Shown: positions 29,070 through 62,609 of the stretch, piece by piece | Position numbering within the stretch: position 1 is the first letter of the stretch | How the letters are laid out: every line of letters starts with the position of its first letter | Origin: Escherichia phage vB_EcoS_Uz-1 | Reading direction: 5' to 3' (one strand) | DNA length: 64,000 bases | Sequence record: OP312987.1 | The notes under the pieces: generated by a model | What the model saw: the letters and a program-made list of their open reading frames with translations, nothing else | What the model was told of the DNA's origin: nothing | Database searches by the model: none | Position numbers and translations under genes: made by a program

Positions 29070-29071
29070 AT

Positions 29072-36734: not shown

Positions 36735-36740
36735 AATTAG

Positions 36741-36803: not shown

Positions 36804-36805
36804 CA

Positions 36806-42897: not shown

Positions 42898-44946
42898 TTA
42901 CTTAACGTGCTTTGACAGCTTAGTAGCCAATTTGCTCTCTTCTTCAGTCAGACCCATTGCAGCTGAAGACTTCTTAGCTGCACGCTTATAGTCTTGTAGG
43001 GCATGACCTTTCTGATAGTCAGAGATAGGACTATCTTCAGGATGTACGCAGATTATCATGGCATGTTTACCAGTAATGGCAGGCTTATATTTAGTGGGTA
43101 GAACGGTCTTAGCTTGCTTCACTGGTTTTGGTTTGCCGATGGGTTTAGCTGTGTAAGTTGTACGTACATCAGCAATCTTAGCCACTACATCGGAACCAAC
43201 TCCTAAAGCAGCCCATGGCTTACGGGCCTTGCCTCGCATTTCCACAAGCAAATCAGCAGCAGCTAATTTATCTTCTGGGGTTGTTGCATTGAGGAACTCT
43301 TTGACCAGTTCCTGGATTTGTTCTTTCACAGTAGGAGCCTTCTTAATAACGGGTTTAAGGTCAGTAGCCTTCACTGGTTCAGAAGCTACAGTTTCATTCA
43401 GTGACTCTTCCATATTCAGTGCTTCTTTATTAGCAACTGTACGGAATTGTTCTACAGAACCAGATGTGAGATTAGTATATTTGAGGTTAGTACCACGATG
43501 TCCACCAACCATAACAAGTGTGGTAGGTGAACTATGGTTCCCAACGATGGCATCATTAAGCAACTTCTTACCTACTTCTGTCTTAGACAGATAGATACCG
43601 TTGTTAACGTTGCAACGTTCCTCTTCCGGCAGTTCAGCAATAATGTGATATGCAGATACACGCATCTTATTAGTGCTGTACTGAGGAACAGCAAATACAT
43701 CTTCTGGTGCTACTTTACCAAGGATAGTTACGTTACCACCGAAGCTACGAATGTAGCTCATGGATGCTACATGCAGACCATTAGAACAGTCCTGGCGACG
43801 GTCAGGGTCTACCAGGTCTTCGCGTACCTGCACTTTACATCCTACCCATTGACGAATGTTGCCTGAGTGACAATCAACGAATACACGTTTACCATTCTCT
43901 AGACTTCTATACTTCAGACGTTTCAGGAACAGGATTGAACCATCATCAGCAATAGGTAGCTCAGCAGTTTCCATGAACTTCATCAGGTCTTCAACTGAGT
44001 GTAGACGGTCTTTAATTACTGGAGCCAGACGCTCAAGGAACTTAGTAAAGCCCTTGTAGTCTTTCAGTTGGGCAGACTGACGCAAGTGACGTTGCAGGTT
44101 CTCAACTCCAGGGATAACCCCATCGTTGGTAACAGCAACAACCACTTCATCTTCCTTCACATCAGTGTGGAAGTTAGCGTCATCAGTACTAATAGCACCC
44201 AATGCAGCCAGTTTCTCAGAAGCAGCAGCCAGCTTATCCTGATTCGTAACTTTAACCTCTTCTACATAAGGCAGTGGAGTTTCATCGCGACTGGTAAATA
44301 CAATGTGTACTCCTTTGATATGTTTGGCTTGTTTAGCAAACTCACTCATTTCATCATCGGATACTGCACGAATTGCAATAGGCCATTCTTGCTTAAGAAT
44401 GCTGTCAGTATGCTTATAACTCCAACACAGTACATCATTAATAAAACGAACCAGTGCAGGATGGTTATGGTCCTTGTCCCAACCAGTAACCCACATCAGA
44501 TTGTCACGTTTATCGTAACAACCGTCTGCTACTGTTACTTCTGGTTCATTAGCCTGGACAGCCAGGAAGGTATCCATAGCTCTAGACACCAGCGTCTTAG
44601 TGGGATTTCCCAGCTTAATATCTGAGACGATTCGGGCTGGTTGAGTACTTGTACCATCTTCGAAGAACTCTTTGAGTTTAGCCTTAGCTACCTTGAAGAA
44701 ACGGACGAATCCGTTAGTGTTCTTCTCTGCTTCCAGATATTCAGTACGCAGGTTTACTTCTGGTGCAATGTTTACTTCTATCTGGTCTTTGGTAGTTCCC
44801 AGACCTTTGGTTTGTGCTTCAGATACAATACGAGCAACCCGTGGGTCGCTCTGAGGATATACAATCGTGGAGCCATCAGGCTTCCACAGTGTAAGGTTAC
44901 GACTGTCAACTGCCAGTGCGATGATAGAAATCAGTTCGATTTTCAT
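42898..44946 (-). CDS. large hypothetical protein immediately downstream of rIIA-like gene (rIIB-like by position only)
   Basis: 682-aa ORF following the rIIA-like gene on the same strand. No motif recognised; the rIIB label is positional. Confidence 0.3.
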   Translation of the reverse strand: MKIELISIIALAVDSRNLTLWKPDGSTIVYPQSDPRVARIVSEAQTKGLGTTKDQIEVNIAPEVNLRTEYLEAEKNTNGFVRFFKVAKAKLKEFFEDGTSTQPARIVSDIKLGNPTKTLVSRAMDTFLAVQANEPEVTVADGCYDKRDNLMWVTGWDKDHNHPALVRFINDVLCWSYKHTDSILKQEWPIAIRAVSDDEMSEFAKQAKHIKGVHIVFTSRDETPLPYVEEVKVTNQDKLAAASEKLAALGAISTDDANFHTDVKEDEVVVAVTNDGVIPGVENLQRHLRQSAQLKDYKGFTKFLERLAPVIKDRLHSVEDLMKFMETAELPIADDGSILFLKRLKYRSLENGKRVFVDCHSGNIRQWVGCKVQVREDLVDPDRRQDCSNGLHVASMSYIRSFGGNVTILGKVAPEDVFAVPQYSTNKMRVSAYHIIAELPEEERCNVNNGIYLSKTEVGKKLLNDAIVGNHSSPTTLVMVGGHRGTNLKYTNLTSGSVEQFRTVANKEALNMEESLNETVASEPVKATDLKPVIKKAPTVKEQIQELVKEFLNATTPEDKLAAADLLVEMRGKARKPWAALGVGSDVVAKIADVRTTYTAKPIGKPKPVKQAKTVLPTKYKPAITGKHAMIICVHPEDSPISDYQKGHALQDYKRAAKKSSAAMGLTEEESKLATKLSKHVK

Positions 44947-44950
44947 CAGA

Positions 44951-47516
44951 TTAGTTACCTTTCAGTTTATTTAGACGATTACGGTAGAGGGACTTAAACC
45001 CAGGAATATCCTCTGGATTCTTCTTAAGGTGTTTGACCAAACTACCTAAGTCCAGCGTCTGTAGGATGTCATTTTTATTCCAGCTATAACTGAATAATTC
45101 TTTGTAATCATTAAGTATTTTAAAGTACTTATGATTACGCGGATTAGTCATTATTGCATATGGCTCTAAGTCATCCACTGACTTAATACAACCCATTTCA
45201 ACAAGTTTTTCTTTGTTGTCGTGTGGTCGATTCCGTAGAAAGTCATATGCCCATTCATATTCTGGTTTAAAAATCAGATTCTGTAATGGTTTGAAGGTTA
45301 GACCAGTATGTCTAGGATTTCCCAGTATTCCCTGTCATCCAGTCCTACGTATTCCAGAATACCAATACGGTGTTCAGTAACATATTTCTTGAAGCCTTTA
45401 CTGGTAATAACTGGCATCAGCTCCATAAAGCGAACATCATCAATGTGGATAGCACCTCTCCGTTTGGCCTTGTTAGCTTCGATTTGATTACGGCAGACAA
45501 CAGTCTCTGCTCTCATCTCATCAGATAACTCATACCATTTCCACATGGTTCCAATTCGAGCAGTTACTGGGCTACCTGAACCAACCTGATTGGCTAGTAC
45601 GTAGTACTTAGGTTGCTCTACTTCAACGAAACCAGACTTATCATGGCGACTTGGGTCTGCAAATTCCTTCTGAATATAAGGCTTTGGTTCCCAATCCCCA
45701 TTTTTATTCCGTATTTGGGTAGCACCAAGAACTGCATTCAATGAAATCAGAGAATTAGTTTTACCTCCTGCCTTGGTTTTATTGGCAGCGATTGTCTTAG
45801 ACCGTTTCTCAGCAGCTATCTTAGCTTTCTCTCTACGGAAGTTAGTTGGTTTGTCCCACTCATTATATTGAGTAAGGTCGATTACCCGATAACCCATAGC
45901 AGTGAACTTAGCCACAGCTTCTTCTGCTGCACCCTTCTTAGGTCCAACGACGTGAACAAAAGCTGTACGCTCCAGGTCACCTCGATCGTACTCAGGGAAG
46001 TACGAGAAAGAGTCTGCACAGTCAGACAAACGTCGGGTAACTACAACGTTTTTGGTAGTGAATATGCCAATACTTTGGTGGGAGTTATTGTATATCCTAA
46101 AGTAGTCAGTAAGTTTACCTTTTACCAAGTCAACACGGTTACCTTGATTCATTATGTAACCAGACCACTTAATACCAGAGGTTTTCAAAGCAGCCAGCTG
46201 AGGTAAGTGCAGATGGCGATATACTAATTCCGAGAATGGGGAGTATGTACTTTCTTCACGAGTATCCTTAAGAGCACGCATAGCCTTACCATACAGTTTC
46301 TTAAGACCTGCGTATTCAGGACGAGCTAATAATGCCTTATTGGATAAATTACGCCAGTGCTTGATGTAATGCTTACGTTGCTTAGCCCACAAACTAGAGG
46401 ACATATAGCGTTGAACAGTTCTGTCTGTAACAGCACCCAGGAATGATGGATACTCCCAGAAGCGAGTAGAGGATTTAGAAGCATATTCTTCAACCTGCTT
46501 AATGGCTTCAGGAATCTTAGCCTTAATCTCTTTCTCCATACGGTCTACTAAATCTACACATAGAGTAGTAATACCATCGTCGGTTAACTTCTGGTTAGAC
46601 AGCGTTTCTCGACTAGGAGCAATAGCTAAAGTGTCTGGTGCAGCCTGAACTACTAGATTAGAAGCACCAATAATATTCATGAAGTTGAGGATAAGGCCTA
46701 CAGCTTCTTCACTAGCTGGGCTGGATACAATTGGTACATTACATTACCGTAGCGAACGTATATGTTACTGCTACCCATATAGCCTTGATACCATCTATCA
46801 GACATATCATATGAACCAGGTTCAAATGGCATGCCTAGTGTATCCAGTAGAGTGTAGTCGCCTTGTTGAATACTATTACTCTCGTCTGTTCTAATGAGTT
46901 TGGGAGTACTTAGCTCAGCTTTAATTTCACCGTTAAACACAATTGATTTGATGTAATGAATAAAGGTATTTAAATCATGTTTGCCTAACTGGAATTTAAC
47001 TTCCAGACCAGATTCCTCAGTAGGAATACCAGTAATAATAGGAACAATACCAGGCTTACCATCATTCTCAATTGCAGCCTTAGCTACGTTATATACAGAC
47101 ATCTTCCCTTGGTTCCATGATGTAACCTGGAAGCTATCTGTATAAGCGAATGGGGATTTACATCCCAGACCAAAGCCACCAGTAACACTACTGTTGGACT
47201 TCTTGGTAGATGCACCATAGACACCATAAATGGAGCCAATGAGTTCATCTTGGATACCGTTACCGAAGTCACGGAAGGTAATAAAGTTGTCAGTATCAAT
47301 GGTAATACGGATAGGAGTATCAGTCTTACCTGCTTCAATATGGGCATCCCAACTGTTACAGATAGTTTCACGGACTACTGCCAGAGTAGGGTTGTTATAC
47401 AAGGAAGTACTTAATACATGAAAGAATGCCGGGTCATCAGAGATGCCAAAGGCGATTGCTTCTTTGCCACCCAGTGTCGCTGAAGTGGCTGATTGATTGG
47501 TATCTGCAACTAACAT
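44951..47516 (-). CDS. rIIA-like protein with GHKL-type ATPase N-terminal domain; two apparent frameshifts
   Basis: Fragments 46698..47516, 45298..46680 and 44951..45196, about 855 aa combined. GHKL-like motifs ETICNSWDA, RDFGNGI, GGFGLG. Adjacent frames are open and protein-like across both junctions; the second is at an A3 run (TGGGAAATCC, coding strand) near 45315-45324. Confidence 0.55.
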
Positions 47517-47543
47517 TTATTTACTCTCCAGTTTAAATGTTGC

Positions 47544-47735
47544 TTACATTAGAACTTGTTTACACTTATCAAAAATAGCTTTACGAAGTTCAGCTTCTTC
47601 CCGTGGTTCATCATTAGGATGGTGACCTACAGGACTATTTTGAAAAGCATTCATTAGGAATAAGACCTGATACTCGGTTAAACCATTAATCTGAATGCTA
47701 TACGTTTTCTCTGAGGCGATATTTACATTAGCCAT
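47544..47735 (-). CDS. small hypothetical protein
   Basis: Track ORF 47544..47792; start preferred at ATG 47735 (MANVNIASEK), overlapping the upstream gene end by 8 nt. Confidence 0.35.
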   Translation of the reverse strand: MANVNIASEKTYSIQINGLTEYQVLFLMNAFQNSPVGHHPNDEPREEAELRKAIFDKCKQVLM

Positions 47736-48102
47736 TGCGTTTACCTGCCATTGCTTGTAATACAAACACAGCCATATCTGATGCCATGTCATCTGTTATA
47801 TCGTTGACCGTTCCATATGGTAGTGGGCCGTTCTCTTCCCAGTTATCTAACGTGTTTTGTACTTCAGCTAAACCAGCCTGAATCATTTCCTTGCTTGGTT
47901 CCAGCCATAACTTACGTTCCTCTGCTAGTGCAGCGATGCATATGCATAGAGAGGCAATGTTAGCTGGACAAGCAGCAATATCACCAGTTACTGCAATCTC
48001 ACTGAGTGGGACAGCCTTACCGGTTTTACTATGAATTACTTCAGGGTTAATCATGAATTTGCTCCAGGTTATGGGCAGGAATAGGGAAGCATGGATAGTC
48101 AC
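47728..48102 (-). CDS. hypothetical protein
   Basis: 124-aa ORF. Confidence 0.4.
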   Translation of the reverse strand: MTIHASLFLPITWSKFMINPEVIHSKTGKAVPLSEIAVTGDIAACPANIASLCICIAALAEERKLWLEPSKEMIQAGLAEVQNTLDNWEENGPLPYGTVNDITDDMASDMAVFVLQAMAGKRNG

Positions 48103-48259
48103 CGGTAGGGTCCAGTGTTACTGACACATGCAGTGTATTTGTCATTTGGGTTAGCATCTGAGCAGCATTGAAATCATCCTGGATACAGGCATATACAATG
48201 TCGCCCTTCTCACCCTCACACATTACGGGTGTGTCTTTGATACGGTATTTAGCAGGCAT
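48047..48259 (-). CDS. hypothetical protein
   Basis: 70-aa ORF immediately downstream of a terminator hairpin. Confidence 0.35.
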   Translation of the reverse strand: MPAKYRIKDTPVMCEGEKGDIVYACIQDDFNAAQMLTQMTNTLHVSVTLDPTGDYPCFPIPAHNLEQIHD

Positions 48260-48286
48260 ATGCCCTCCTGAAAGAGTTAATTGAAA

Positions 48287-48314
48287 CCAAAAAAGACCTC
48301 CCGGAGGAGGTCTT
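48287..48314 (-). terminator. intrinsic terminator (minus strand)
   Basis: AAGACCTCC-CGGA-GGAGGTCTT followed on the minus strand by TTTTTTGG. Confidence 0.5.
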
Positions 48315-48318
48315 AGGT

Positions 48319-48534
48319 TTACTTACGATTTTGTTCTACAAATCGTATCATTTGTTTTTTCACTTCTTCTTGCTCACGAATTGCTTCGTAGTCACGAGCA
48401 AAGTAGTAAACACACCATAAACCAATCTCGCTTACAAAGAACAGAATACTAGCTCGAATGAACTGCATATCTGTTTCTACGACAAAGGCAACTTTGTATG
48501 CGTAGGTCAGTGTTAGTAGGGTACTAATTAGCAT
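48319..48534 (-). CDS. small membrane protein
   Basis: 71-aa ORF with two hydrophobic helices. Confidence 0.4.
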   Translation of the reverse strand: MLISTLLTLTYAYKVAFVVETDMQFIRASILFFVSEIGLWCVYYFARDYEAIREQEEVKKQMIRFVEQNRK

Positions 48535-48553
48535 TGCGTATAGAGCTAGTTTT

Positions 48554-49498
48554 TCATTCTGTAATTGTTTCTCCGGGGATTAGTTTACGGAATTGGATGA
48601 AATCCAGTAAGTTGCCAGAATACAGCTTACCTTCACGGTCCATAGATGTAACACCCTGTTCCCATGTTAATGGGTTCTGGTTGTTCACATACTTATCACC
48701 AACAGTCATAGGAGTTGCCTGGTGTTCGGTAGGGGATGCATGAATAGGTTGGTTTTCAACTAACTTAGCAAACAATCCTAAGTCCTCTTCAATAGTAGAT
48801 GGACGGCCTTCGAAATTGTTGTAAGAAGCACGAGCACAACGAGCAGCACTTACTTTAAGAAGTAAGCCATACACTTCTTCACGACTTGGCTCATCACGAG
48901 TAATTCGCTGATGTTTGCAGTAATTATAAGCCCCGACACGATCAATATGAGCAATATACGGTAAATGCCATTCCCCTTGTGGGAGTGCTCTCGTAGTGCT
49001 TTCATTGTGTGCCTTACGCATTGCTTGAGCCAGTTCACGAATCTCTGGTTGAGCGTCCTCATGGTCACGCAATCCATAGAAGTTAGTCCAGCTAGTTGAA
49101 GTTACCACTACACGGATATGTGTGAATGGTTCCAGAATACGGTTAACAATCTGCTTATGTACTTGACCACGACGAAGCATTTCTGCATAGGTAGCAGCAC
49201 TGGACGCAGCCTGATTCCAGATAAAGATTGCATCTACGTTGGTCTTCGGACTGAGTTCCTCAAATGCCTGCATACCCTTCTGGTTCTTACCCCAGTGACT
49301 TGGCATCACTGGTTCATTACGAACCTGTTCGATGAACTTAGAAGTAGGGATAGCACGACTACTTGAAGCATTTCGGTTGAATACACGGTGAGTCATAAAC
49401 TCACTGTGGATGAATCGGGGGTAAACCAATTCAAAGGTAGTAATACGAGTTCCTGTTTCTGGGTGAACGGAATCTGCAATGACAGTTGCCTTAATCAT
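48554..49498 (-). CDS. thyX: flavin-dependent thymidylate synthase (ThyX)
   Basis: ThyX signature RHRxxxxxS present (EFMTHRVFNRNASSSRAIP); 314 aa. Confidence 0.7.
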   Translation of the reverse strand: MIKATVIADSVHPETGTRITTFELVYPRFIHSEFMTHRVFNRNASSSRAIPTSKFIEQVRNEPVMPSHWGKNQKGMQAFEELSPKTNVDAIFIWNQAASSAATYAEMLRRGQVHKQIVNRILEPFTHIRVVVTSTSWTNFYGLRDHEDAQPEIRELAQAMRKAHNESTTRALPQGEWHLPYIAHIDRVGAYNYCKHQRITRDEPSREEVYGLLLKVSAARCARASYNNFEGRPSTIEEDLGLFAKLVENQPIHASPTEHQATPMTVGDKYVNNQNPLTWEQGVTSMDREGKLYSGNLLDFIQFRKLIPGETITE

Positions 49499-50476: not shown

Positions 50477-50716
50477 TTACGATTGTAGTCTGAGACTGCC
50501 TTTATTAGACAGTGCCCAAATTAGTGCTACTACCCAGAAGACTAAAGACCAGCCTAATACGATATTGAGCACACCAATGCCCCACTTGGAGGCATGGCCT
50601 CGTGCAAAAGCAATGATAGTAGGGATGAGGTATACAGCTATTATGAATAAGAAAACAAGGATTGCTGCTAAAGATTCCATGATGGTTCCTATGTGGGGTT
50701 GAGTTAGTTTCTTCAC
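50477..50716 (-). CDS. small membrane protein (two TM helices)
   Basis: 79-aa ORF, strongly hydrophobic. Confidence 0.45.
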   Translation of the reverse strand: MKKLTQPHIGTIMESLAAILVFLFIIAVYLIPTIIAFARGHASKWGIGVLNIVLGWSLVFWVVALIWALSNKGSLRLQS

Positions 50717-50753
50717 AAATAGCCCAACTATGCTGGGCTATTTAGGCAGCTAC

Positions 50754-50963
50754 TTACTCAGCATCTTTGCTTGCAGAAGCAAGAGCTTTCTTCAGGTAAT
50801 TACGTACTGAACGATAGGTTTCTTTAGTATCCATAGCATTATCATTTACGAAAGTGATACGTGCACAATCAGACAGCGGAATCTGCTCCACTGCAATTAC
50901 ATTTGCAGCATTAATGGTTACACGTACATCTGAGGTTGCATGAGTTACTTGAAATACTGACAT
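50754..50963 (-). CDS. hypothetical protein
   Basis: 69-aa ORF. Confidence 0.35.
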   Translation of the reverse strand: MSVFQVTHATSDVRVTINAANVIAVEQIPLSDCARITFVNDNAMDTKETYRSVRNYLKKALASASKDAE

Positions 50964-50972
50964 GTTGTTTCC

Positions 50973-51479
50973 TTAATTAAGCCGTCTAGCAGCTACTGGT
51001 TTATCTTCCTGGTTCTGATACTTGCCATTGTAATTAGCAGGTTCTTGAACCAGATGAAATAATACTTGAGCTATCCCAGCACCAGCCGGGATATGCAATT
51101 TCTTACGACCATGATAGACCAGTTCGAGGGTAAGATACCCTTTCCATCCTGGTTCTATTACGGTATTGAACACTGATAATGCACGTCTTGCCCACGTAGA
51201 CTTATCGTGAACGATGGCTACACAGGACGGGGACATATTAAACTTCTCAATTGCTGAGGCCAAGGCGAACTTACCGAGATGGCGTGATACTTGATTTCCA
51301 TCAACGACTTTCACCATTGGAATCAACCCAAATAAGCGATAGAAGGTAATATCCTGTTTGATACGAATATCATAACCAGCTTCACCTAATCCGTAGCTTA
51401 CACCATGCTTAGATACCTTACGGTCTGGGACATCCAGCAGCTGAGATGAACGGTATAGAGAATTACCATTAACAACCAT
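50973..51479 (-). CDS. dCTP deaminase/dUTPase-family protein
   Basis: SYGLGEAGYDIRI and GWKGYLTLEL motifs resemble the dCTP deaminase/dUTPase fold. Confidence 0.55.
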   Translation of the reverse strand: MVVNGNSLYRSSQLLDVPDRKVSKHGVSYGLGEAGYDIRIKQDITFYRLFGLIPMVKVVDGNQVSRHLGKFALASAIEKFNMSPSCVAIVHDKSTWARRALSVFNTVIEPGWKGYLTLELVYHGRKKLHIPAGAGIAQVLFHLVQEPANYNGKYQNQEDKPVAARRLN

Positions 51480-52651
51480 TATTTCATTCCTTTAGGGATA
51501 TGAACTACCTCCCCAAAAGGTACGGTAGCATTGGGATTATTCAGAACACACCAGATGATAGGAATATCAAATGGCAATTCTTCCATTGGACGAACATACA
51601 TATCGGAGAATATGATTGCAGCGGTTGGCTTATTCTTAATAATCCAATCACGTACTGGTTCCAGGTTTGTACCACCACGACCTGTAATCTTAATCTCTTC
51701 AAATGTATCTTCTTCAGTGATGTCTATCTCTTCTTGGATAATATCGTCGAAGGTAATTAGGGACATCTTCTTAGGATTGAACTGGCTTTTAACGTAGGCA
51801 ACCTCTGAGTTAAATCGCAGAGAGTCTGCACTACTAATAGAACCAGATACATCTTCAAAGTAGGCCAGGTGTCGTAAACGTCCTTCATCATCTTCCATAG
51901 AAGGTAGATAGATATCAGTAAAACGACGGTTAGGTCTGGCCCATGTATAACGTGATTCATCAATGTCGGTAAAAAGTTCATCAGAACTTCTTGCCATGGA
52001 ACCACTGGTTTAAGAAATTGGGTAATAACCTCTTCCATACGACCAGCACCCTTACCTGGCATCTGTCCACCAGCCATTTTCTGGCTTTGCATTGCACGTA
52101 CTACGTTGTTGACAACAGCACCCTGGGACTGCCCGGAGTGGGGATTTCATGTCGCCAGCAAGACCTGCTCCAGCACCCCCTGACGGCTTCTGCCTTTTCT
52201 GAGGGTTCTTCATCAAGTCATCGTAGATATCTTCTTCGACCCATCCTTTATATTGAGGGTCTTTGCAAATACCTTTGTCGATACCAGTGAATTTGTAACC
52301 ATCTTCTTCTAACTGAAGGTTAATGAAGTGGTCACATGCCTGGTTCCAGACTTCTGGGTCACGGCTTCCACGACGGATGTCATGTAGATATGCCACATGC
52401 CAGAGTTCGTGCATTAACACTGTTTCTCTTGCGTCTGGACACATCCAGATAAAGAAATCTGGATTGAAATGGAGTTCTATCCCATCGGTACATGCAGTGG
52501 GACAATCCTCGCGTTTCCACGAGAACTTAAGACTACATAGTAATGAACCAAAGAACGCAGCGCTTCGACCTAGGAAAGCCTGAGCTTGAATACGATCATA
52601 TTCACGCATGAGTTGTTCATCTGTGAGACTATGCGTAGGTATACTGTTCAT
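51479..52651 (-). CDS. metallopeptidase-like (HExxH) plus VWA domain protein; two apparent frameshifts
   Basis: Fragments 52052..52651 (HELWH motif), 51757..52092 and 51479..51997 (VWA MIDAS-like DVSGS). First break at a C4 run on the coding strand (plus strand GGGG at 52140..52143). Confidence 0.5.
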
Positions 52652-53129
52652 TAGGGTGCTCCATGATTGGGGTGATAGCCATACAGTTTTTCAGCCGCTT
52701 TTCTGGCGTCTATGGCATCTTGCTTGTCTGCAAAAGTGCCCAAACTTACCAGACGTGTTCCATCAGATATAGCTGCATACCAGATGGAATCACGCTTGTG
52801 CCAGTACACACCAGTAACACCACTGGAATTAGTTACCCGTTTCTTTTGGTTTCTGGTGTTAGTTCTGCTGTCTACTAATCTAAAGTTACTTAGAAGGTTA
52901 TTAACCCTATTGTGGTCTAGGTGATCAATCTGCATACCTTTCGGGATAGGTCCATTGTGCATTTCCCATATGACACGGTGCACTTTGTAACTTTTGCCCT
53001 TATAGTTGAAGCATAAATAACCATCGCTATTTAGATTACCTACCTTTTTCCAGCAATGCCTCTGGAGGCTACTGTAACTTTCCAGAATAGCTCCCCATTT
53101 ATGTAAACGAGTATGTCATTCCAGTTCAT
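52651..53129 (-). CDS. HNH homing endonuclease with AP2 domain; disrupted by a 1-nt deletion in an A-run
   Basis: True start ATG 53129 gives MNWNDILVYINGELFWKVTVASRGIAGKR then stop; the downstream frame continues VGNLNSDGYLCFNYKGKSYKVHRVIWEMHNGPIPKGMQIDHLDHNR (HNH_3) and an AP2-like C-terminus. The frames join at GGAAAAAGG (plus strand T5 at 53045..53049). Confidence 0.6.
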
Positions 53130-53136
53130 GTTGTGA

Positions 53137-54188
53137 TTATCCGTGAATGTAGCGGGAGATGTTAGCAGCAGCCTTACGCCATTCAGGGGTAGCCTGAAGT
53201 TCTGGCAATGCTCTGCCTACTGTACGAAAGTACAGAATCTTATGAGTGAACGTTTTAAAGCGTTCAATGTACTGAAGAACATCAGCGAAGTTTTCCTCAG
53301 TAGTTTTGTTAGCCAGATGGTTAACGGTAGCCCAACACAGGTTATTATCTTCCGGTAGTGTACAGCCCATAGGGTCTTTGACTACCTTATCAATCGTAAT
53401 GATACGATTGTACACCTGTGTAAATTGAACAAACTCTGTAGCCTTACCAGCAGTAACGTGTCCTGCATAGTAGATAGAATCTTCATCAGGCAGAGCACCT
53501 TCAGGACGGTTCTTGAGGTCTTTGTTAACAAAGTCCCAGGTACGAGGGCAACAGAACGTTTTGTTCTTATGTGCTGGGTCGAAGTCATGCAGATAACCGG
53601 GGTTAGCATGTAAGAATGCAACCAGACGTTCATCCATTGTTGTGGAATCATTACGTCTTCAACAAAGATGTCGAAGTTAAGTTCCATTTCGAAGTGGACA
53701 ACACGGGACTGCATTGCAGTACCCAGTGGGTTAACGATGGCACGGTCAGTAGCTTTGTTACCAGCACAGATAATCATCACATTAGGATGAAGTTTTTTCT
53801 GACCAGTCATACGGTCTAGAATCAGTTTATATGCAGCAGCTATTACTTCTTTGCGAGCAGATGGGAACTCATCAAGGAATAAGAGCCAGCCATTATATCC
53901 TTCCGGTATTTTATCCCCTTCAATTGGGAATAAGTCAGCGAATGGAATAAACTCTGCACGGTCACCATTACGGAATGGTAAGCCAGAAAGGTCTTCCGGG
54001 GCAGAAGTTGACAGACGATGGTCTATCAACTTCATACCAAATTCTTCTGCAATAGAACGAATGATTGCAGATTTACCCATGCCAGGTGATGAAGTCAGGA
54101 ACGGTACGTTACCTGCTTTCAAAGCACGGATAATAAAGTTACGAGCTTGACGTGAATTACATACGGTCAAGGAGTCAATGCTTGCCAT
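53137..54188 (-). CDS. MoxR-like AAA+ ATPase; N- and C-terminal parts in different frames
   Basis: Walker A SSPGMGKS, Walker B LLFLDEF, sensor-1-like ICAGN in 54188..~53650; a protein-like C-terminal ORF 53137..53637 in another frame, while the N-terminal frame continues as low-complexity garbage. Could instead be two genes. Confidence 0.5.
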
Positions 54189-54222
54189 TTACTTACTCTC
54201 CTAAAGCTAATGGAATTACTGA

Positions 54223-54552
54223 TTAAGATTTAGTGCAGGGATAGGCCTTGTGTACTGAGTACACAACAATTTGAGATGTATTCTTCATCTTGAGGATTGC
54301 AGAGTCATAAATAACCACTTTGGCAATCTTAGGCAGAATGACCGAATATTTAATACCTTCTGGAACACAGTTATCTGTGCTCTCGATGTAAGAGATCATA
54401 CTGCCCATGAAGAAACCTTGTCCGAACGCATCACGAGTGTCATCCAGGTAAGCCTGAGCACCTTCCAGAATTGGTTCTGGTTCAATTGCTTGTGCACTTG
54501 GGGCTAAAGCTATCAGTGCAGCTACTGCAATACCTTTAAGTAAAGTTTTCAT
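54223..54552 (-). CDS. small secreted protein with Sec-type signal peptide
   Basis: N-terminus MKTLLKGIAVAALIALAPSAQA with an AxA cleavage-like site; 109 aa. Confidence 0.5.
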   Translation of the reverse strand: MKTLLKGIAVAALIALAPSAQAIEPEPILEGAQAYLDDTRDAFGQGFFMGSMISYIESTDNCVPEGIKYSVILPKIAKVVIYDSAILKMKNTSQIVVYSVHKAYPCTKS

Positions 54553-54738
54553 TTAGTTACCTTTCATTTCATTGAGTTTAAGTACACCGATAGGGGTTAA
54601 TGACCACCCAAGACCAGCATTGAACTGAACTAAGCCCAGCTTCTTAAGAGACTGTGCGGTTTTGTTATTACGGTTGCTGGTGGCAGAACCACCTTGAACC
54701 ATACGAAGGAAGATTGCTTGGGACTGAGTTAATTTCAA
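54553..54738 (-). CDS. hypothetical protein
   Basis: 61-aa ORF, start overlapping the upstream stop. Confidence 0.35.
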   Translation of the reverse strand: MKLTQSQAIFLRMVQGGSATSNRNNKTAQSLKKLGLVQFNAGLGWSLTPIGVLKLNEMKGN

Positions 54739-54944
54739 AGGTAATATCCTTCCAGGTTTATTGGTGTTACAAATGTATTTGCTGATAGATAGAATGATTT
54801 ACCAGTTTCTACAGCAACAGCAGCAGGTTTGCCTTCAGGTAGGTGAATCTTTAAACACACTGTCTGGTTATAAATAAAACCATTAGCAGGCTCTACATCA
54901 CCGAAAGTTACTTCATTGTTCTCAGAACGATTTGTTACTTTCAC
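54735..54944 (-). CDS. hypothetical protein
   Basis: 69-aa ORF, ATGA-coupled. Confidence 0.35.
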   Translation of the reverse strand: MKVTNRSENNEVTFGDVEPANGFIYNQTVCLKIHLPEGKPAAVAVETGKSFYLSANTFVTPINLEGYYL

Positions 54945-55201
54945 TCATCTTCTCCTTCATCCGGTAGCGGTGATAAATCTACACCTAAATGCTTCAGGCG
55001 TTTCTCTAAGTCATCTACCTTATTTTGATAAAATGACAGTAGCTCAGGTAGTATTCTTGTACGAGCTTGCGGTCCTAAATCCTTATCGTAAAAGGATACT
55101 TTCACCATATGTGGAGCTTTCTTCAAACTAGCTAATTGCTGTCGGTTGTCGTTGTATTCTTCATACAATTTCTCAACCAAATGTAGATTGTGGATATTCA
55201 T
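54941..55201 (-). CDS. hypothetical protein
   Basis: 86-aa ORF, ATGA-coupled. Confidence 0.4.
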   Translation of the reverse strand: MNIHNLHLVEKLYEEYNDNRQQLASLKKAPHMVKVSFYDKDLGPQARTRILPELLSFYQNKVDDLEKRLKHLGVDLSPLPDEGEDE

Positions 55202-55386
55202 TTCTTCTCCGGTACGAACTGCATTACACAGCTTTGATTACGAGGGATATTAAGTTCACATTCATGCTTGAGGGTTTGTGTTACAGAGTTTGGAGTAGAA
55301 CCAAAATAGGTATTGGAGATAGCTACGAATCCTGCACCTATTAAACCACCTAGTAAGAATGAGAAGAATGCAATCTCTTTATACAT
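55198..55386 (-). CDS. small membrane protein
   Basis: 62-aa ORF with an N-terminal TM helix. Confidence 0.4.
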   Translation of the reverse strand: MYKEIAFFSFLLGGLIGAGFVAISNTYFGSTPNSVTQTLKHECELNIPRNQSCVMQFVPEKK

Positions 55387-55446
55387 TTCCTGGCTCCAGA
55401 TGTAGAAAACCCAGTCAATGCTGGGGTTTATCTATCAGTTTATACT

Positions 55447-55707
55447 TTATAGACCATGTGGTCGGCATAGACTACCCGAACCAAACGAACGGTGTCCAAG
55501 TCGGCCCAGGATTAGATTGCTTACTTCAGCAGCAGCACGACTGAATGCTTTAAAGTCAAAAACTACGATACCAAAGAGTGGGGCTGCAATAGCAGCTACC
55601 ATGATTGGAGTCAGGTCAACCAGTGACATACCCAAGATTAAGTGAGCAGCGTAGGCAATAATACCCATTCCAACACCACAACCATATCCAATAGCAATTT
55701 TACGCAT
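55447..55707 (-). CDS. small membrane protein
   Basis: 86-aa ORF with two G/A-rich hydrophobic helices. Confidence 0.4.
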   Translation of the reverse strand: MRKIAIGYGCGVGMGIIAYAAHLILGMSLVDLTPIMVAAIAAPLFGIVVFDFKAFSRAAAEVSNLILGRLGHRSFGSGSLCRPHGL

Positions 55708-55844
55708 AGTTACCTTCTTAGTTAGTAAGTTGATTTACATATTCATATAACAGACAAACAATAGTCAAAAAAGACTCCCTTCAATAGGGAGGTCAAACTT
55801 GAGGGTTTCATTTCAGGGTTTATAACCCCAAACAAAGAATACCC

Positions 55845-56753: not shown

Positions 56754-56934
56754 AGTTGTTTACACAGTAGATAGCGAAAGCTATCCATCCTGCCATTACA
56801 AAGCATCCTAGTGAATATGCCCCATAGTAGCAGTAAGCAAACTTAGACTTGTGGGCACGGACTATCGTAGCCAGAACCAGTACAGATAAAACTATCAGTA
56901 TTAACTGAGAGATTACTTCAAAAGGGATTAGCAT
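56752..56934 (-). CDS. small membrane protein
   Basis: Track ORF 56752..56967; internal start at 56934 (MLIPFEV) preferred because the first 11 codons overlap a terminator hairpin. Confidence 0.35.
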   Translation of the reverse strand: MLIPFEVISQLILIVLSVLVLATIVRAHKSKFAYCYYGAYSLGCFVMAGWIAFAIYCVNN

Positions 56935-56951
56935 AGTTGTTACCTCCAAGC

Positions 56952-56984
56952 AAAAAATATGCCTCACTCCCGAAGGAATGAGGC
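56952..56984 (-). terminator. intrinsic terminator (minus strand) after RNAP II large subunit gene
   Basis: GCCTCA-CTCCCGAAGGAA-TGAGGC followed on the minus strand by ATATTTTTTG. Confidence 0.45.
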
Positions 56985-56991
56985 TAGTTTA

Positions 56992-58209
56992 TTAACTCAA
57001 CGCATAGTCTGTTTCAAGAATGTCCTGCCAGAGGCTGTCATCCAGCTTACCAGCAGAGAACTCTTGCCCCAGTACCTGAGACAGGATGAAGCCCAGTAGG
57101 TCACTCTTAGCAATATCAGACAGGATCTGATTGTACTGACGACGCAGGTCATTACCGTAGTTAGGATGGCAACGGAAGCAGTCATGTACAGTCATTACAG
57201 GGAATGGTTTCTTAGGCAGAGTGTCAATCATATCTGCTACTACCTGACGGTCTACATAAGCAATAGTACATGGGTCAAGATAGTCCAGGATGGATAAAGA
57301 TAAGAAGCCAGACTTCTCATAATGGCTCCATAGCTCTTGTACCTTCTCCAGATTACCTGCAATCTCCCCATATTCTGATGGACCTTCATCACAGAGTTCT
57401 CGCACAGCTTCCACTAAGTCACGTTCGAAGTTACAACGACGTAGCATCTCACGCACTACCATCCCATCAATAGAGTGAGTGATGTTAGCAGAGAGCATAC
57501 GGGTCTTCTCTTCAGTACCCTGAACCATACGGGTGATATCAAATGGTTTACCTAAGAAGTTAACAGTCTGTACTTCTGGAACCATGACCTTAATCACAGC
57601 ATGGAAGTTGTCAGGCAATACCCATACGTAACGATTAGCATCCGGGTTACCACATTGCAGTAAGAACTTGTTCAATGCCCAAGGACCACTCGCAACCGTT
57701 TCCATTACATTCTCAAAAGTCTTGAGACGAATACCTTCACCGAATACTTCTTTAGGCTTAGCTTCTGAACCGTAGAACGCAGTCATAACTGCCTGCTTAG
57801 TGTCACTACGTTTAATACGTGAAGCTTCACCAAGGATGTCCAGCATCTTGTGATAGATAACTGTATAAGCATCACGACGTAATGGCTTACCATTCTCTCC
57901 CATGTAGTTAACTACGTTACACAGTTCAGCAGCAGAGCGGTCACCAGTCAGACAGGCCAGTAACTGTAAGCCAGATGATGTAGCATCCAGAGCTACAGCA
58001 TAACCAATAGGCTTACCAGCTTTCATATCCTTCCATGCGTTTACACCAGCATAAAACAGTGCAGATTCTTCAGCTTCATCTACCAGATTAAGTAGGTTAG
58101 CTTCATTCTCATCGAACCAGCTAATACGTTCATCCCATGTCTTCTTATCTAAGCCATAGTTGTTAGCGATATCTATTTTCAGGTATTGTTTAGCGGTTAA
58201 CAGTTGCAT
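56992..58209 (-). CDS. phage RNA polymerase II catalytic (large) subunit, T7-like single-subunit RNAP C-terminal half
   Basis: T7-RNAP-like motifs LDATSSGLQ (A), TAFYGS (B) and HDCF (C). Start re-derived at ATG 58209 with AAGGAA RBS; the track ORF starts at a GTG 30 nt upstream. Confidence 0.75.
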   Translation of the reverse strand: MQLLTAKQYLKIDIANNYGLDKKTWDERISWFDENEANLLNLVDEAEESALFYAGVNAWKDMKAGKPIGYAVALDATSSGLQLLACLTGDRSAAELCNVVNYMGENGKPLRRDAYTVIYHKMLDILGEASRIKRSDTKQAVMTAFYGSEAKPKEVFGEGIRLKTFENVMETVASGPWALNKFLLQCGNPDANRYVWVLPDNFHAVIKVMVPEVQTVNFLGKPFDITRMVQGTEEKTRMLSANITHSIDGMVVREMLRRCNFERDLVEAVRELCDEGPSEYGEIAGNLEKVQELWSHYEKSGFLSLSILDYLDPCTIAYVDRQVVADMIDTLPKKPFPVMTVHDCFRCHPNYGNDLRRQYNQILSDIAKSDLLGFILSQVLGQEFSAGKLDDSLWQDILETDYALS

Positions 58210-60727: not shown

Positions 60728-61038
60728 GGTTTAAGTACCTGGAATGCGAATACTGGACGTTTACTACGCCATTGGTTCATGGCTAGTTCACTGGCAGGAG
60801 AGCCATCATGTAAGTCATATATGAATGTAATCATATACTCTGGTTCTTCCGGGAAGTTCTCTGTAGAGAAGGGTAAACCAGCTTCTTTAATACAGGTAAT
60901 CAATGGTGATTCTGGTTCACAATAAACAGTGAACTCTTCGTTGAATGCTTTACTAGTCTGAGATACATAATCAATATTACGCATCATCTTATCGACGTCA
61001 GTAAATGTATTATCATGTACTACTACAATAGTTTTCAT
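60724..61038 (-). CDS. hypothetical early protein
   Basis: 104-aa ORF, ATGA-coupled. Confidence 0.4.
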   Translation of the reverse strand: MKTIVVVHDNTFTDVDKMMRNIDYVSQTSKAFNEEFTVYCEPESPLITCIKEAGLPFSTENFPEEPEYMITFIYDLHDGSPASELAMNQWRSKRPVFAFQVLKP

Positions 61039-61226
61039 ACTGGCTCCCTGCCTGTAAATGCTACTACTTTTCCTGACATATTCCGTAGGGTTACCTGTGC
61101 TGAGTTAACATCAGCAAATTGCTCTGCAACCCAGTTAAGCATCTCAGGGTCATTATTTAATTGTTTGTTAATCACAGTTTTACTGTCTGCTGTTACTAAA
61201 GTGATTTCATAATTTTCAATATTCAT
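61035..61226 (-). CDS. hypothetical early protein
   Basis: 63-aa ORF, ATGA-coupled. Confidence 0.35.
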   Translation of the reverse strand: MNIENYEITLVTADSKTVINKQLNNDPEMLNWVAEQFADVNSAQVTLRNMSGKVVAFTGREPV

Positions 61227-61480
61227 GCTACTTTCTCCAGCGTTAGGTAAACGTTATTATTGACAATACTCAAATCACAAAAACCAATCTCTTCTTGTCT
61301 CCCAGAGGATACCCAGATATTGTTTTCTGTTAGCTTAGGTTTTTTAGAGAATCCTATTAGTGAGGTATTAGCACTCTTATATTGACGAGGTAGTAATGCT
61401 ATATACTTAACCCAGTGAGGCACTTGAATAGTATGCTTCATATATTCCACAGTCTTGCCTGTAGGATATGCAATAATCAT
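61223..61480 (-). CDS. hypothetical early protein
   Basis: 85-aa ORF, ATGA-coupled. Confidence 0.35.
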   Translation of the reverse strand: MIIAYPTGKTVEYMKHTIQVPHWVKYIALLPRQYKSANTSLIGFSKKPKLTENNIWVSSGRQEEIGFCDLSIVNNNVYLTLEKVA

Positions 61481-61698
61481 TTCTGATACCCCTGTATATA
61501 GTTAATACGGCGAATACGTTGAGTAGATGCTTTAACAGCCATCTGTTGATTCTCTTCTTTATGCTGATTATTCAGCACCTTATCCCATTCTTTCTGATTC
61601 CGTTGTTTCTGTAATATACGACTACACTTCTTATGATTAGCAACTCCTCTTCCTTTATTGCAAATTGGGCAAATACCATAATTAGTGCTGAACAACAT
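61477..61698 (-). CDS. small basic protein with CxxC motif
   Basis: 73-aa ORF; GICPICNKG near the N-terminus and a K/R/Q-rich remainder. Confidence 0.35.
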   Translation of the reverse strand: MLFSTNYGICPICNKGRGVANHKKCSRILQKQRNQKEWDKVLNNQHKEENQQMAVKASTQRIRRINYIQGYQK

Positions 61699-61703
61699 TT
61701 TGT

Positions 61704-61934
61704 TTATTCCTTAGTAATGTGATTGGCAGTATAGAAGTCATTAATCTCTGATTGGGTAGTATCAGCATAACCGGATACACCGGTTTCTTTATTAACCCAT
61801 TTATCGAAGCACTCACTGTGTCCATGTGTACTAACTTTTACCCATGTACTGGTTCCAAAGAATGTTTTTTTCTCTACTTCTGCACCAATACCACGTTCAT
61901 TATCTGCAAAGCGTATTACCTTATATTTAGCCAT
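61704..61934 (-). CDS. hypothetical early protein
   Basis: 76-aa ORF. Confidence 0.35.
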   Translation of the reverse strand: MAKYKVIRFADNERGIGAEVEKKTFFGTSTWVKVSTHGHSECFDKWVNKETGVSGYADTTQSEINDFYTANHITKE

Positions 61935-62235
61935 TTAAAGCCTCCATTAATATTTTGCGAATAACGTTAACATCAGATTCAGTACCAATTAAACCAACAG
62001 GTTTCTTTGTACTATCTGTGACAAAGGATGCAATCCTTTCCATCTCTGCTGTAATTAGTTTGTCCCCACTAATAAGACGATTACGGAGGTAAGCTTCATA
62101 AGCTACCTCTACATCTTCTACTGTGGTTCTTTCATTACGAGTGAATGGATTACTTAATTGAAAGGGTAAGTGGATACGGATATTCCTGTCAGCTATCTTA
62201 GCTGATTGAGGAAGTATACAAACAATTTCATTCAA
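61927..62235 (-). CDS. hypothetical early protein
   Basis: 102-aa ORF. Confidence 0.4.
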   Translation of the reverse strand: MNEIVCILPQSAKIADRNIRIHLPFQLSNPFTRNERTTVEDVEVAYEAYLRNRLISGDKLITAEMERIASFVTDSTKKPVGLIGTESDVNVIRKILMEALNG

Positions 62236-62277
62236 GGTTATTTCTCCTATTTAAATACATATCTAACTATTCAGGAA

Positions 62278-62306
62278 TAAAAAATAGAAGCCCTCCTAAT
62301 GGAGGA
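62278..62306 (-). terminator. candidate intrinsic terminator (minus strand)
   Basis: CCTCC-TAAT-GGAGG stem followed on the minus strand by CTATTTTTTATT. Confidence 0.35.
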
Positions 62307-62426
62307 CTCCTAGTTACTTGATACATGAATGGTTGAAGGTAACAATCTTACGTACTGGTTCAGACGTCTGTTTCTTAGCAACCAGACGTTCTTTCATCTT
62401 TTGCACGTCTTCTCTGGTTCCCATGA

Positions 62427-62609
62427 TTAATGATTTACGCATGATTTAGTACTCCACATAAAGTTAAAAGGTTTATTCTTACGTACAATTCTTACAACCA
62501 TTTGATAGCCATTGAGTTGTACAACACCATAGTGTCGTTTCTGTACACCAGTGTGATACCTACGAAAGATACATTCTTCAATGGCATCATCTATGTTAGT
62601 GAATATCAC
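62427..62609 (-). CDS. hypothetical early protein
   Basis: 60-aa ORF, ATGA-coupled to the upstream membrane protein ORF. Confidence 0.3.
   Translation of the reverse strand: MIFTNIDDAIEECIFRRYHTGVQKRHYGVVQLNGYQMVVRIVRKNKPFNFMWSTKSCVNH

What the first reader, a model, noticed from the sequence alone, without database searches (positions are those of the whole stretch)
51479..54188. MoxR-type AAA ATPase and VWA/metallopeptidase pair, both interrupted
An AAA+ ATPase with MoxR-like Walker and sensor motifs and a protein combining an HExxH metallopeptidase-like domain with a VWA MIDAS motif form a classic ATPase/VWA module, here inside a phage replication region with an HNH gene inserted between them. 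The VWA gene is broken at a C4 run (plus strand GGGG 52140-52143) and again near 51990-52010; the ATPase C-terminal part is in another frame from about 53650. The function of such modules in phages is poorly defined.
Basis: partly seen in the sequence, partly recalled or inferred. Interest (0 to 1): 0.45.

Follow-up and report, generated by a model that had tools for sequence, protein, structure and literature searches.

The report
Known phage ATPase/VWA pair, false frameshifts
The region holds the well-known, conserved N4-like phage gene pair gp24 (AAA+ ATPase) and gp25 (metallopeptidase-like plus VWA protein), and the "interruptions" are single-base sequencing errors copied from a reference genome, not biology.

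Summary
The genes are real. Window 53137-54188(-) is N4 gp24, an AAA+ ATPase of the dynein/midasin/MoxR clade. Window 51479-52651(-) is N4 gp25: DUF2201_N with an HExxH motif plus a VWA domain with a full MIDAS motif. An HNH-AP2 homing endonuclease gene lies between them. gp24 and gp25 are published core genes of all N4-like phages.

The frame breaks are artefacts. All five are also in the GenBank record of phage Bp4. They are absent from PD38, which has no substitutions against Bp4 in this region, and from IME11 and G7C.

The window's ORF products are exactly those of Escherichia phage vB_EcoS_Uz-1. That record is 72,583 bp, the same length as Bp4. All 64,000 bases align to Bp4 without a single gap despite 3,811 substitutions. 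Bp4 differs from PD38 by 32 homopolymer shortenings that also split the DNA polymerase, primase and rIIA genes. The record therefore looks like a consensus built on the Bp4 reference.

Adding one base at each site restores proteins of 350, 159 and 391 aa. The real phage probably lacks the HNH gene here.

Verdict: already known, low interest. The function of gp24/gp25 is still untested; a chaperone/protease role is only inferred.

The parts
53137..54188 (-). gp24 homologue: AAA+ ATPase of the dynein/midasin/MoxR-like clade. It is 350 aa once one base is restored at 53634-53635. As written in the record it splits into ORFs 53382-54188 and 53137-53637.
53634..53635 (.). Frame break 1, in gp24: CC where PD38, IME11 and G7C have CCC. 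It falls at W185/D186, between the alpha/beta core and the C-terminal helical part.
52651..53129 (-). Free-standing HNH_3 + AP2-like homing endonuclease gene (G7C gp24.1 type), 159 aa once one base is restored. It is 100% identical to Bp4 over 52617-53139 and is probably carried over from the reference rather than present in the real phage.
   Evidence: HNH_3 63.5 bits, AP2 23.3 bits. PHROG 99. Absent from IME11, PW8, pSb-1 and U1G at this site. Zero-mismatch block. Chimeric flank.
53045..53049 (.). Frame break 2, in the HNH gene: T5 where PD38 has T6.
51479..52651 (-). gp25 homologue: an N-terminal zincin-like domain (DUF2201_N, HELWH at residues 81-85) plus a C-terminal VWA domain (DUF2201) with the MIDAS motif DxSxS...T...D. 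It is 391 aa once three bases are restored.
52140..52143 (.). Frame break 3, in gp25: G4 where PD38 has G5. IME11 and G7C have the same length as PD38.
52132..52134 (.). Frame break 4, in gp25: C3 where all relatives have C4.
51971..51975 (.). Frame break 5, in gp25: A5 where PD38 has A6. Together with breaks 3 and 4 it returns translation to the original frame.
52580..52618 (-). Codons 12-24 of gp25. The protein sequence is identical in HNH-carrying and HNH-lacking phages, but nearly every codon is recoded between the two allele classes. Here the window carries the HNH-lacking allele while nt 1-33 of the gene carry the Bp4 allele. This is a likely homing-site region and the junction of the reference carry-over.
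50973..51479 (-). dCTP deaminase (gp26 homologue), immediately downstream. Listed as context for the conserved order gp24-(HNH)-gp25-gp26.

Best explanation
The locus is the conserved Schitoviridae middle-gene pair gp24 and gp25. gp24 is an AAA+ ATPase of the dynein/midasin/MoxR-like clade. gp25 is an HExxH zincin-like domain fused to a MIDAS-bearing VWA domain. In the record, a free-standing HNH-AP2 homing endonuclease gene separates them.

The five frame breaks are not biological. They are one-base homopolymer undercalls that first appear in the GenBank record of phage Bp4. The source record of this window (Escherichia phage vB_EcoS_Uz-1) reproduces them because it appears to be a substitution-only consensus laid on the Bp4 reference. 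In the living phage, gp24 (350 aa) and gp25 (391 aa) are almost certainly intact, and the HNH gene is probably absent from this site.

The mechanism is inferred, not shown. By analogy with MoxR-VWA pairs (CbbQ-CbbO, NorQ-NorD, RavA-ViaA, ATV p618-p892), a gp24 ring would use ATP hydrolysis to remodel a client that gp25 holds through its VWA/MIDAS site. The gp25 zincin domain could cleave that client or gp25 itself. This would be a chaperone/maturation step during the middle phase of infection.
For: Shown:
- All five breaks are 1-nt deficits at homopolymers. They are shared with Bp4 and absent from PD38, IME11 and G7C.
- Bp4 and PD38 have 0 substitutions in these 3.1 kb. Over 64 kb they differ by 3 substitutions and 32 indel events. 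Bp4 is the shorter at all 32, nearly all at homopolymer runs.
- In Bp4 these events also split the DNA polymerase, primase, rIIA, gp51 and gp53 genes, all of which are intact in PD38.
- The whole window aligns to Bp4 8584-72583 with 3,811 substitutions and no gap.
- The window ORF products are exactly UWJ04360.1, UWJ04356.1 and UWJ04355.1 of vB_EcoS_Uz-1, whose contig is 72,583 bp, the same length as Bp4.
- Natural relatives at about 92% identity align only in 2-7 pieces, and where coordinates allow the check the aligned spans differ in length by hundreds of bases (444 for ECBP1) per 25 kb.
- Substitutions fall mostly on third codon positions of the corrected frames on both sides of each break (42/55 in gp24, 61/78 in gp25). 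75 of 141 variant bases are alleles seen in IME11 or G7C. So a real, selected, intact-gene phage underlies the substitutions.
- Thirteen blocks are 100% identical to Bp4. They include both HNH genes and the tailspike. The gp25 5' end is chimeric exactly where an HNH-lacking allele would start to map.
- Adding one base per site restores 350-, 159- and 391-aa proteins.
- gp24 and gp25 are listed as core genes of N4-like phages (PMC4193335 Table 3; PMC7650795 Table 2).
- Family evidence.
- gp24 lies upstream of gp25 on the same strand in all 7 bacterial/MAG loci with enough flank.

Inferred: the chaperone/protease mechanism. A similar proposal exists for the MoxR + metallopeptidase-vWA pair of jumbo phages (PMC7824862).
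Against: I could not read the Uz-1 record or its reads: OP312987 is not in the searchable collections, and the Bp4 paper is not held. The reference-guided origin and the sequencing platform are therefore inferred from sequence patterns alone. Mosaic 100%-identity blocks could partly reflect real recombination.

For the mechanism, no experiment on N4 gp24/gp25 was found. AAA_5 and AAA_3 Pfam scores are below threshold. RFC-type clamp-loader folds score close to CbbQ/NorQ. The zincin fold of the gp25 N-terminal domain was not recovered in the fold searches.
Confidence: 0.9

Rival explanations
1. The frameshifts are real mutations. In the Bp4/Uz-1 lineage, gp24, the HNH gene and gp25 would be pseudogenes or be expressed as separate fragments (for example a 268-aa ATPase core plus a 166-aa C-terminal piece that happens to start at a new ATG).
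For: Two GenBank records (Bp4 and Uz-1) show the same breaks. The gp24 deletion happens to create an ATG that opens the C-terminal ORF. Genuinely split gp24 genes exist in relatives through an HNH-containing insert.
Against: The two records are not independent: they have equal length and no indels over 64 kb. PD38 differs from Bp4 by only 3 substitutions over 64 kb and has all genes intact. The same class of event breaks the DNA polymerase and primase in Bp4, which a viable lytic phage cannot tolerate. Third-position bias holds in the corrected frames on both sides of each break, including the 160-nt out-of-frame middle of gp25. gp24 and gp25 are core genes of the family. Of the 120 best-scoring homologues listed for each gene, all gp25 entries (368-396 aa) and all but four gp24 entries are full length; the four are fragments, one of them the Bp4/Uz-1 product itself.
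Confidence: 0.04
2. The breaks are real and are bypassed by programmed ribosomal frameshifting or transcriptional slippage at the homopolymers, giving regulated synthesis of full-length gp24 and gp25.
For: All breaks lie in homopolymer runs, and A/T runs can support polymerase slippage. Restoring the gp25 frame needs exactly the net three bases that are missing.
Against: Three of the five runs are only 2-4 nt of G or C (CC, CCC, GGGG), too short for known slippage. The sites are not conserved as shift sites: every other relative examined is in frame there, and IME11 and G7C do not even have a homopolymer at two of them. gp25 alone would need three successive +1 events, and there are 32 such sites across the genome. 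No RNA family match lies in 50500-55500.
Confidence: 0.02
3. The window is an honest de novo genome of a natural recombinant. A Bp4-like HNH cassette would have homed into an HNH-lacking gp24/gp25 background. The 100%-identity blocks would be recent exchanges with a Bp4-like phage, and the shared breaks would be recurrent errors of the same sequencing platform.
For: N4-like coliphages are mosaic, and homing endonuclease genes move between them. The substitutions carry natural alleles.
Against: Homing normally co-converts flanking markers, yet here the recoded protective flank (codons 12-24) is of the HNH-lacking type. Thirty-two identical homopolymer errors, zero other indels in 64 kb including intergenic DNA at 6-12% divergence, and an identical total length of 72,583 bp are not expected from an independent assembly.
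Confidence: 0.03

Closest known systems
Escherichia phage N4 gp24 (AAA+ ATPase) and gp25 (vWFA-domain protein), core genes of Schitoviridae. The direct orthologues are G7C gp24/gp25, IME11_49/48, and PD38 AXY81309 / an unannotated full-length ORF.
   Same: Same genes, same order (small ORFs - gp24 - [HNH] - gp25 - dCTP deaminase gp26) and same lengths after correction (350 and 391 aa). Protein identity to Gamaleyavirus orthologues is about 96%.
   Different: Only the five one-base deficits, which are shared with the Bp4 record and are artefactual.
MoxR-class AAA+ ATPase / VWA partner systems: CbbQ-CbbO, NorQ-NorD, RavA-ViaA, and ATV p618-p892.
   Different: gp24 does not reach the Pfam thresholds for AAA_5, AAA_3 or bpMoxR. 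It has a roughly 165-aa helical C-terminal region with no family match. The gp25 VWA domain is fused to an HExxH domain, which as far as I recall the classical partners lack. No client is known.
The MoxR + (metallopeptidase-vWA) pair of group 2.2 jumbo phages (Iyer et al. 2021, PMC7824862).
   Same: The same two-gene architecture in a phage. It is described there as a chaperone-cochaperone pair with an N-terminal metallopeptidase on the vWA protein, and a role in virion assembly/processing is proposed.
   Different: Direct sequence relatedness to the jumbo-phage proteins (ASV44729.1/ASV44728.2) was not tested here. In N4-like phages the pair lies among middle (replication/nucleotide metabolism) genes, not in a structural module.
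Midasin (Rea1/Mdn1) and dynein AAA modules.
   Same: Midasin is the only significant sequence match in the PDB (E 2.9e-4; profile E 9e-4). Dynein and midasin are the top fold matches. Midasin also couples AAA_5 modules to a MIDAS domain.
   Different: Midasin and dynein carry six AAA modules in one giant eukaryotic polypeptide. gp24 is a single 350-aa module that presumably forms homo-oligomers.
Free-standing HNH homing endonucleases of phages (G7C gp24.1, the phage TLS EndZ type).
   Same: HNH_3 plus an AP2-like DNA-binding domain. The gene shows presence/absence polymorphism between otherwise collinear genomes and a recoded target flank in carriers.
   Different: In this record the gene is frameshifted, and it is probably not part of the real phage genome.

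Membership tests
AAA+ ATPase superfamily | Walker A (GxxGxGK[ST]), Walker B (hhhhDE), sensor-1 polar residue and a conserved arginine after sensor 1 | tested here: met
   G38-K39-S40, D106-E107, N144 and R162 are invariant in 32 homologues. Pfam AAA scores 26-29 bits against a cut-off of 21.2.
MoxR / AAA_5 (dynein-midasin-MoxR) clade | Score above the curated threshold of Pfam AAA_5 (PF07728), AAA_3 (PF07726) or bpMoxR (PF20030) | tested here: not met
   AAA_5 scores 15.5-17.5 bits against a cut-off of 22. bpMoxR scores 13.2 against 27. AAA_5 is detected at E<0.01 in 20 of 32 family members, AAA_3 in 1 of 32.
MoxR / AAA_5 (dynein-midasin-MoxR) clade | The closest solved structures belong to the clade | tested here: met
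MoxR / AAA_5 (dynein-midasin-MoxR) clade | Helix-2 insert and pre-sensor-1 beta-hairpin | tested here: inconclusive
   The model shows a roughly 40-residue insert between strand 52-58 and strand 100-106, which is partly low-confidence. It also shows short strands at 127-134 before strand 137-144. This was read from the secondary-structure string only and was not superposed.
MoxR / AAA_5 (dynein-midasin-MoxR) clade | Encoded next to a VWA-domain partner | tested here: met
   gp24 lies immediately upstream of gp25 in Bp4, PD38, IME11, G7C and PW8 and in 7 of 7 bacterial/MAG loci with enough flank.
VWA domain with MIDAS | Rossmann-like VWA fold | tested here: met
VWA domain with MIDAS | MIDAS motif DxSxS ... 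T ... D | tested here: met
   D268, S270, G271, S272, T329 and D351 are invariant in 34 homologues. The window reads DVSGS, GGT and FSD.
Zincin-like metallopeptidase (Pfam DUF2201_N) | HExxH zinc-binding/catalytic motif and family HMM match | tested here: met
   H81, E82, W84 and H85 are invariant. DUF2201_N scores 192.5 bits against a cut-off of 23.2.
Zincin-like metallopeptidase (Pfam DUF2201_N) | Zincin fold and a third metal ligand | tested here: inconclusive
   Fold searches returned only VWA matches. The N-terminal domain could not be searched alone. Invariant D107 is a candidate third ligand but is unproven.
Zincin-like metallopeptidase (Pfam DUF2201_N) | Peptidase activity | not testable with these tools
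   No experimental report was found.
Schitoviridae core genes gp24/gp25 | Orthology and synteny with N4 gp24/gp25 | tested here: met
   RefSeq notes in Bp4 and G7C say 'similar to YP_950502.1 gp24 / YP_950503.1 gp25 from N4'. Core-gene tables are in PMC4193335 and PMC7650795.
HNH homing endonuclease | HNH nuclease motif domain | tested here: met
   HNH_3 scores 63.5 bits against a cut-off of 24.8. PHROG 99 scores 192 bits.
HNH homing endonuclease | Sporadic presence between collinear genomes, with target-site differences in carriers | tested here: met
   Present in Bp4, PD38 and G7C; absent in IME11, PW8, pSb-1 and U1G. Codons 12-24 of gp25 are recoded between the two classes with the protein sequence unchanged.
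Programmed frameshift / slippage site | Shift site conserved in relatives, with both frames needed | tested here: not met
   All relatives except the Bp4 record are in frame at all five sites. IME11 and G7C lack a homopolymer at two of them.

The most novel reading that the evidence does not exclude
The short homopolymers are really present in the phage DNA, and gp24 and gp25 are still made. This could happen as functional split polypeptides (an AAA+ core without its lid plus a separate C-terminal piece; a zincin fragment plus a separate VWA fragment) or through slippage. That would make a family-wide core module dispensable or re-wired in one lineage.
Probability: 0.02. Interest if true: 0.5.

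Novelty: already known. Interest (0 to 1): 0.1.

Why it matters
As biology the finding adds little. gp24/gp25 is a published core gene pair of N4-like phages, and the MoxR + metallopeptidase-VWA architecture in phages has already been described.

The practical value is as a caution.
- One GenBank phage record (vB_EcoS_Uz-1) appears to be a consensus laid on another error-rich record (Bp4). It therefore reproduces 32 false frameshifts and probably carries reference-only genes.
- Such fragments have already seeded spurious protein families. PHROG 16335 and PHROG 30358 match only the frameshift product or a fragment.
- PHROG 1314 and several RefSeq records label gp25 as 'HNH endonuclease'.

What the ATPase/VWA-zincin pair does for N4-like phages remains a real open question, but this window offers no special handle on it.

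Tried and rejected
- An exact 41-nt window-specific pattern found nothing in IMG/VR.
- Look-ups of the 268-aa product in the contig index failed. The source was identified through the protein cluster table instead.
- OP312987 is not in the annotated collections, and the Bp4 genome paper PMC8193434 is not held. Sequencing platforms and assembly methods therefore could not be read.
- NCBIfam gave no hit for any of the three proteins. PADLOC gave only a negligible DolB hit for gp24 and homing-endonuclease hits for the HNH gene, so nothing points to a defence or anti-defence system.
- The PDB sequence/profile search for gp25 gave nothing meaningful.
- Both fold searches of the whole gp25 model returned only VWA domains, so the zincin fold stays unconfirmed.
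- Rfam found nothing in window 50500-55500.
- Literature searches for functional work on N4 gp24/gp25, including the CRISPRi-ART study, found nothing.
- I considered and rejected random in-silico mutation of Bp4 as the origin of the substitutions. They are biased to third codon positions, and more than half match alleles of other natural phages.
- Searches failed on term length.
Full report
**What is in the sequence.** All genes here are on the minus strand. The region 51479-54188 carries:
- an ORF of 268 aa (53382-54188) with Walker A and B motifs;
- an overlapping ORF in another frame (53137-53637);
- an HNH ORF (52651-52983);
- three overlapping ORFs (52052-52651, 51757-52092, 51479-51997).

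Pfam assigns the first ORF to AAA. It assigns the 199-aa ORF to the first half of DUF2201_N ('putative metallopeptidase domain'), the 172-aa ORF to DUF2201 ('VWA-like domain'), and the middle gene to HNH_3 plus a sub-threshold AP2 domain.

**Identity of the locus.** The window is an N4-like coliphage of the genus Gamaleyavirus (Schitoviridae). The closest records are Bp4 and PD38, at 95.5% identity over the region. RefSeq annotation of Bp4 and G7C identifies the genes as homologues of N4 gp24 (ATPase) and gp25. In G7C, an HNH gene called gp24.1 lies between them and dCTP deaminase gp26 lies downstream. In PD38, IME11 and G7C the ATPase is one 350-aa ORF. In IME11 and G7C gp25 is one 391-aa ORF.

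**The frame breaks.** A five-way alignment shows that the window and Bp4 share five one-base deficits relative to PD38, IME11 and G7C. In plus-strand coordinates they are:

| Gene | Window | Coordinates | Relatives |
|---|---|---|---|
| gp24 | CC | 53634-53635 | CCC |
| HNH | T5 | 53045-53049 | T6 |
| gp25 | G4 | 52140-52143 | G5 in PD38 |
| gp25 | C3 | 52132-52134 | C4 |
| gp25 | A5 | 51971-51975 | A6 in PD38 |

It placed the other gp25 break and the ATPase break about 15-35 nt off, missed the second gp25 site 5 nt from the first, and missed the break in the HNH gene. Adding one base at each site yields uninterrupted proteins of 350, 159 and 391 aa. Their Pfam hits are AAA 26 bits, DUF2201_N 192.5 bits and DUF2201 116.3 bits.

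**Why the breaks are artefacts.**
- Bp4 and PD38 have no substitution differences in these 3.1 kb.
- Over the 64 kb equivalent to the window, Bp4 and PD38 differ by 3 substitutions and 32 indel events. Bp4 is the shorter at every one, nearly all at homopolymer runs. This is the signature of homopolymer undercalling.
- In Bp4 these events split DNA polymerase, primase, rIIA, gp51 and gp53 into two or three ORFs. All of these are single ORFs in PD38.
- The entire window aligns to Bp4 positions 8584-72583 with 3,811 substitutions and no gap at all. It therefore carries all 32 shortenings.
- The window's three ORF products are exactly UWJ04360.1, UWJ04356.1 and UWJ04355.1 of Escherichia phage vB_EcoS_Uz-1 (OP312987.1 according to PMC11927229). 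Its contig is 72,583 bp, the same length as the Bp4 record.
- Natural relatives at about 92% identity align in 2-7 pieces, and where coordinates allow the check the aligned spans differ by hundreds of bases (444 for ECBP1) over 25 kb.

**The substitutions are natural.** They fall mainly on third codon positions of the corrected reading frames, before and after each break (42 of 55 in gp24, 61 of 78 in gp25). 75 of 141 variant bases are alleles found in IME11 or G7C. The simplest account is that reads of a real, related phage were mapped to Bp4 and only substitutions were transferred.

**Evidence of reference carry-over.** Thirteen blocks of at least 250 nt are 100% identical to Bp4. They include the tailspike region, a second HNH gene and the HNH gene of this locus (52617-53139). 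These look like stretches where nothing mapped and the reference was kept.

The 5' end of gp25 supports this directly. Phages that carry the HNH gene (Bp4, PD38, G7C) and phages that lack it (IME11, PW8, pSb-1, U1G) have two distinct alleles. Nt 1-33 differ in sequence. Codons 12-24 are recoded at nearly every codon while the protein stays identical. The window has the Bp4 allele for nt 1-33 and the HNH-lacking allele from nt 34 on. The real phage therefore probably has no HNH gene here.

**What the pair is.** gp24 and gp25 are two of the roughly 14 core genes of N4-like phages. They are annotated 'unknown' or 'AAA+ ATPase' and 'vWFA domain' (PMC4193335; PMC7650795; PMC2784036). They are transcribed as middle genes in N4.

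*gp24.*
- Its only PDB sequence match is a midasin AAA module.
- Pfam AAA_5, AAA_3 and bpMoxR stay below threshold.
- It works like, and probably belongs to, the dynein/midasin/MoxR clade, but it is a divergent member. 'MoxR-type' is a reasonable label rather than a demonstrated family membership.

*gp25.*
- It has an invariant HExxH motif and an invariant DxSxS...T...D MIDAS motif across 34 homologues down to 48% identity.
- The zincin fold itself was not recovered.

*Synteny.* The order gp24 then gp25 is kept in all 7 bacterial or MAG loci with enough flank (8 loci were retrieved). One is a 28-30% identical pair in Burkholderia alba that lies beside VirB11- and VirB4-like genes.

**Mechanism (inferred).** The analogy is with MoxR-VWA pairs, and with the MoxR + metallopeptidase-vWA pair that Iyer et al. 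describe in jumbo phages as a chaperone-cochaperone pair for virion assembly and processing (PMC7824862). On that analogy, gp24 rings would remodel a client held by the gp25 MIDAS site, with possible cleavage by the HExxH domain. No experimental work on N4 gp24/gp25 was found.

**Verdict.** The module assignment is right. The 'interrupted' state is a database artefact. The module itself is already known. Interest is low.

Noticed in passing
window 1-64000: The whole window aligns without gaps to Bp4 (NC_024142.2 8584-72583) at 94.05% identity. Its ORF products are those of vB_EcoS_Uz-1, whose record has the same length as Bp4 (72,583 bp). The record looks like a substitution-only consensus on the Bp4 reference. 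The 'S' (siphovirus) in the name also conflicts with an N4-like podovirus genome.
   Followed up: yes
window 12297; 14973-15424; 35023; 38149, 38526, 40077; 45303, 46733; 50499; and 20 further sites: There are 32 homopolymer shortenings relative to PD38. As annotated in Bp4, they split gp53, gp51, the primase (gp43), the DNA polymerase (gp39) and rIIA, and truncate the Imm-like gene. Any 'interrupted gene' finding elsewhere in this window should be read in that light.
   Followed up: partly
window 1-2960, 27115-27735, 28882-29667, 36191-37027, 44684-47096, 47533-48559, 52617-53139, 53920-55796, 56872-57423, 61027-61938, 62021-62799: These blocks are 100% identical to Bp4 inside a genome that is otherwise 6-12% diverged. 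They cover the tailspike, both HNH genes, most of rIIA and clusters of small ORFs. They are probably reference sequence kept where no reads mapped, so these stretches may not exist in the real phage.
   Followed up: partly
window 52580-52651 (gp25 codons 1-24); loci L001-L004, L017-L019: There are two allele classes at the gp25 5' end that track presence or absence of the upstream HNH gene. Codons 12-24 encode the same peptide but differ at nearly every codon. This is a likely homing-endonuclease target with protective recoding in carriers.
   Followed up: partly
L017 513-2433 (PW8), L018 513-2433 (pSb-1), L019 345-2279 (U1G): In these Gamaleyaviruses gp24 really is split after about codon 68 in PW8/pSb-1 (later, after about codon 105, in U1G) by an insert of roughly 0.9 kb that carries an HNH ORF. 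There is a weak group I intron match at 1232-1521 (Rfam RF00028, 25.6-26.8 bits against a gathering score of 50). U1G annotates it as 'Phage intron'. It may be an intron in the ATPase gene. It is absent from the window.
   Followed up: partly
PHROG families hit by gp24/gp25; RefSeq annotations: PHROG 16335 (267 positions, matched only over 1-186) and PHROG 30358 (204 positions = gp25 residues 188-391) look as if they were built from frameshift products or fragments. PHROG 21479 (68 positions) matches the short first piece of the split gp24. PHROG 1314 labels the DUF2201 protein 'HNH endonuclease', and this label is propagated to gp25 in several RefSeq phage records (Bp4 orf66, St11Ph5, ZQ2, HK2).
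   Followed up: no
L014 3888-11665 (Burkholderia alba NZ_JAWJWL010000025.1); L010, L011: Distant gp24/gp25-like pairs occur in large bacterial contigs. In B. alba the pair lies directly upstream of VirB11-like (T2SSE) and VirB4-like genes. The module is therefore not restricted to phages and may also serve conjugative elements or prophages.
   Followed up: partly
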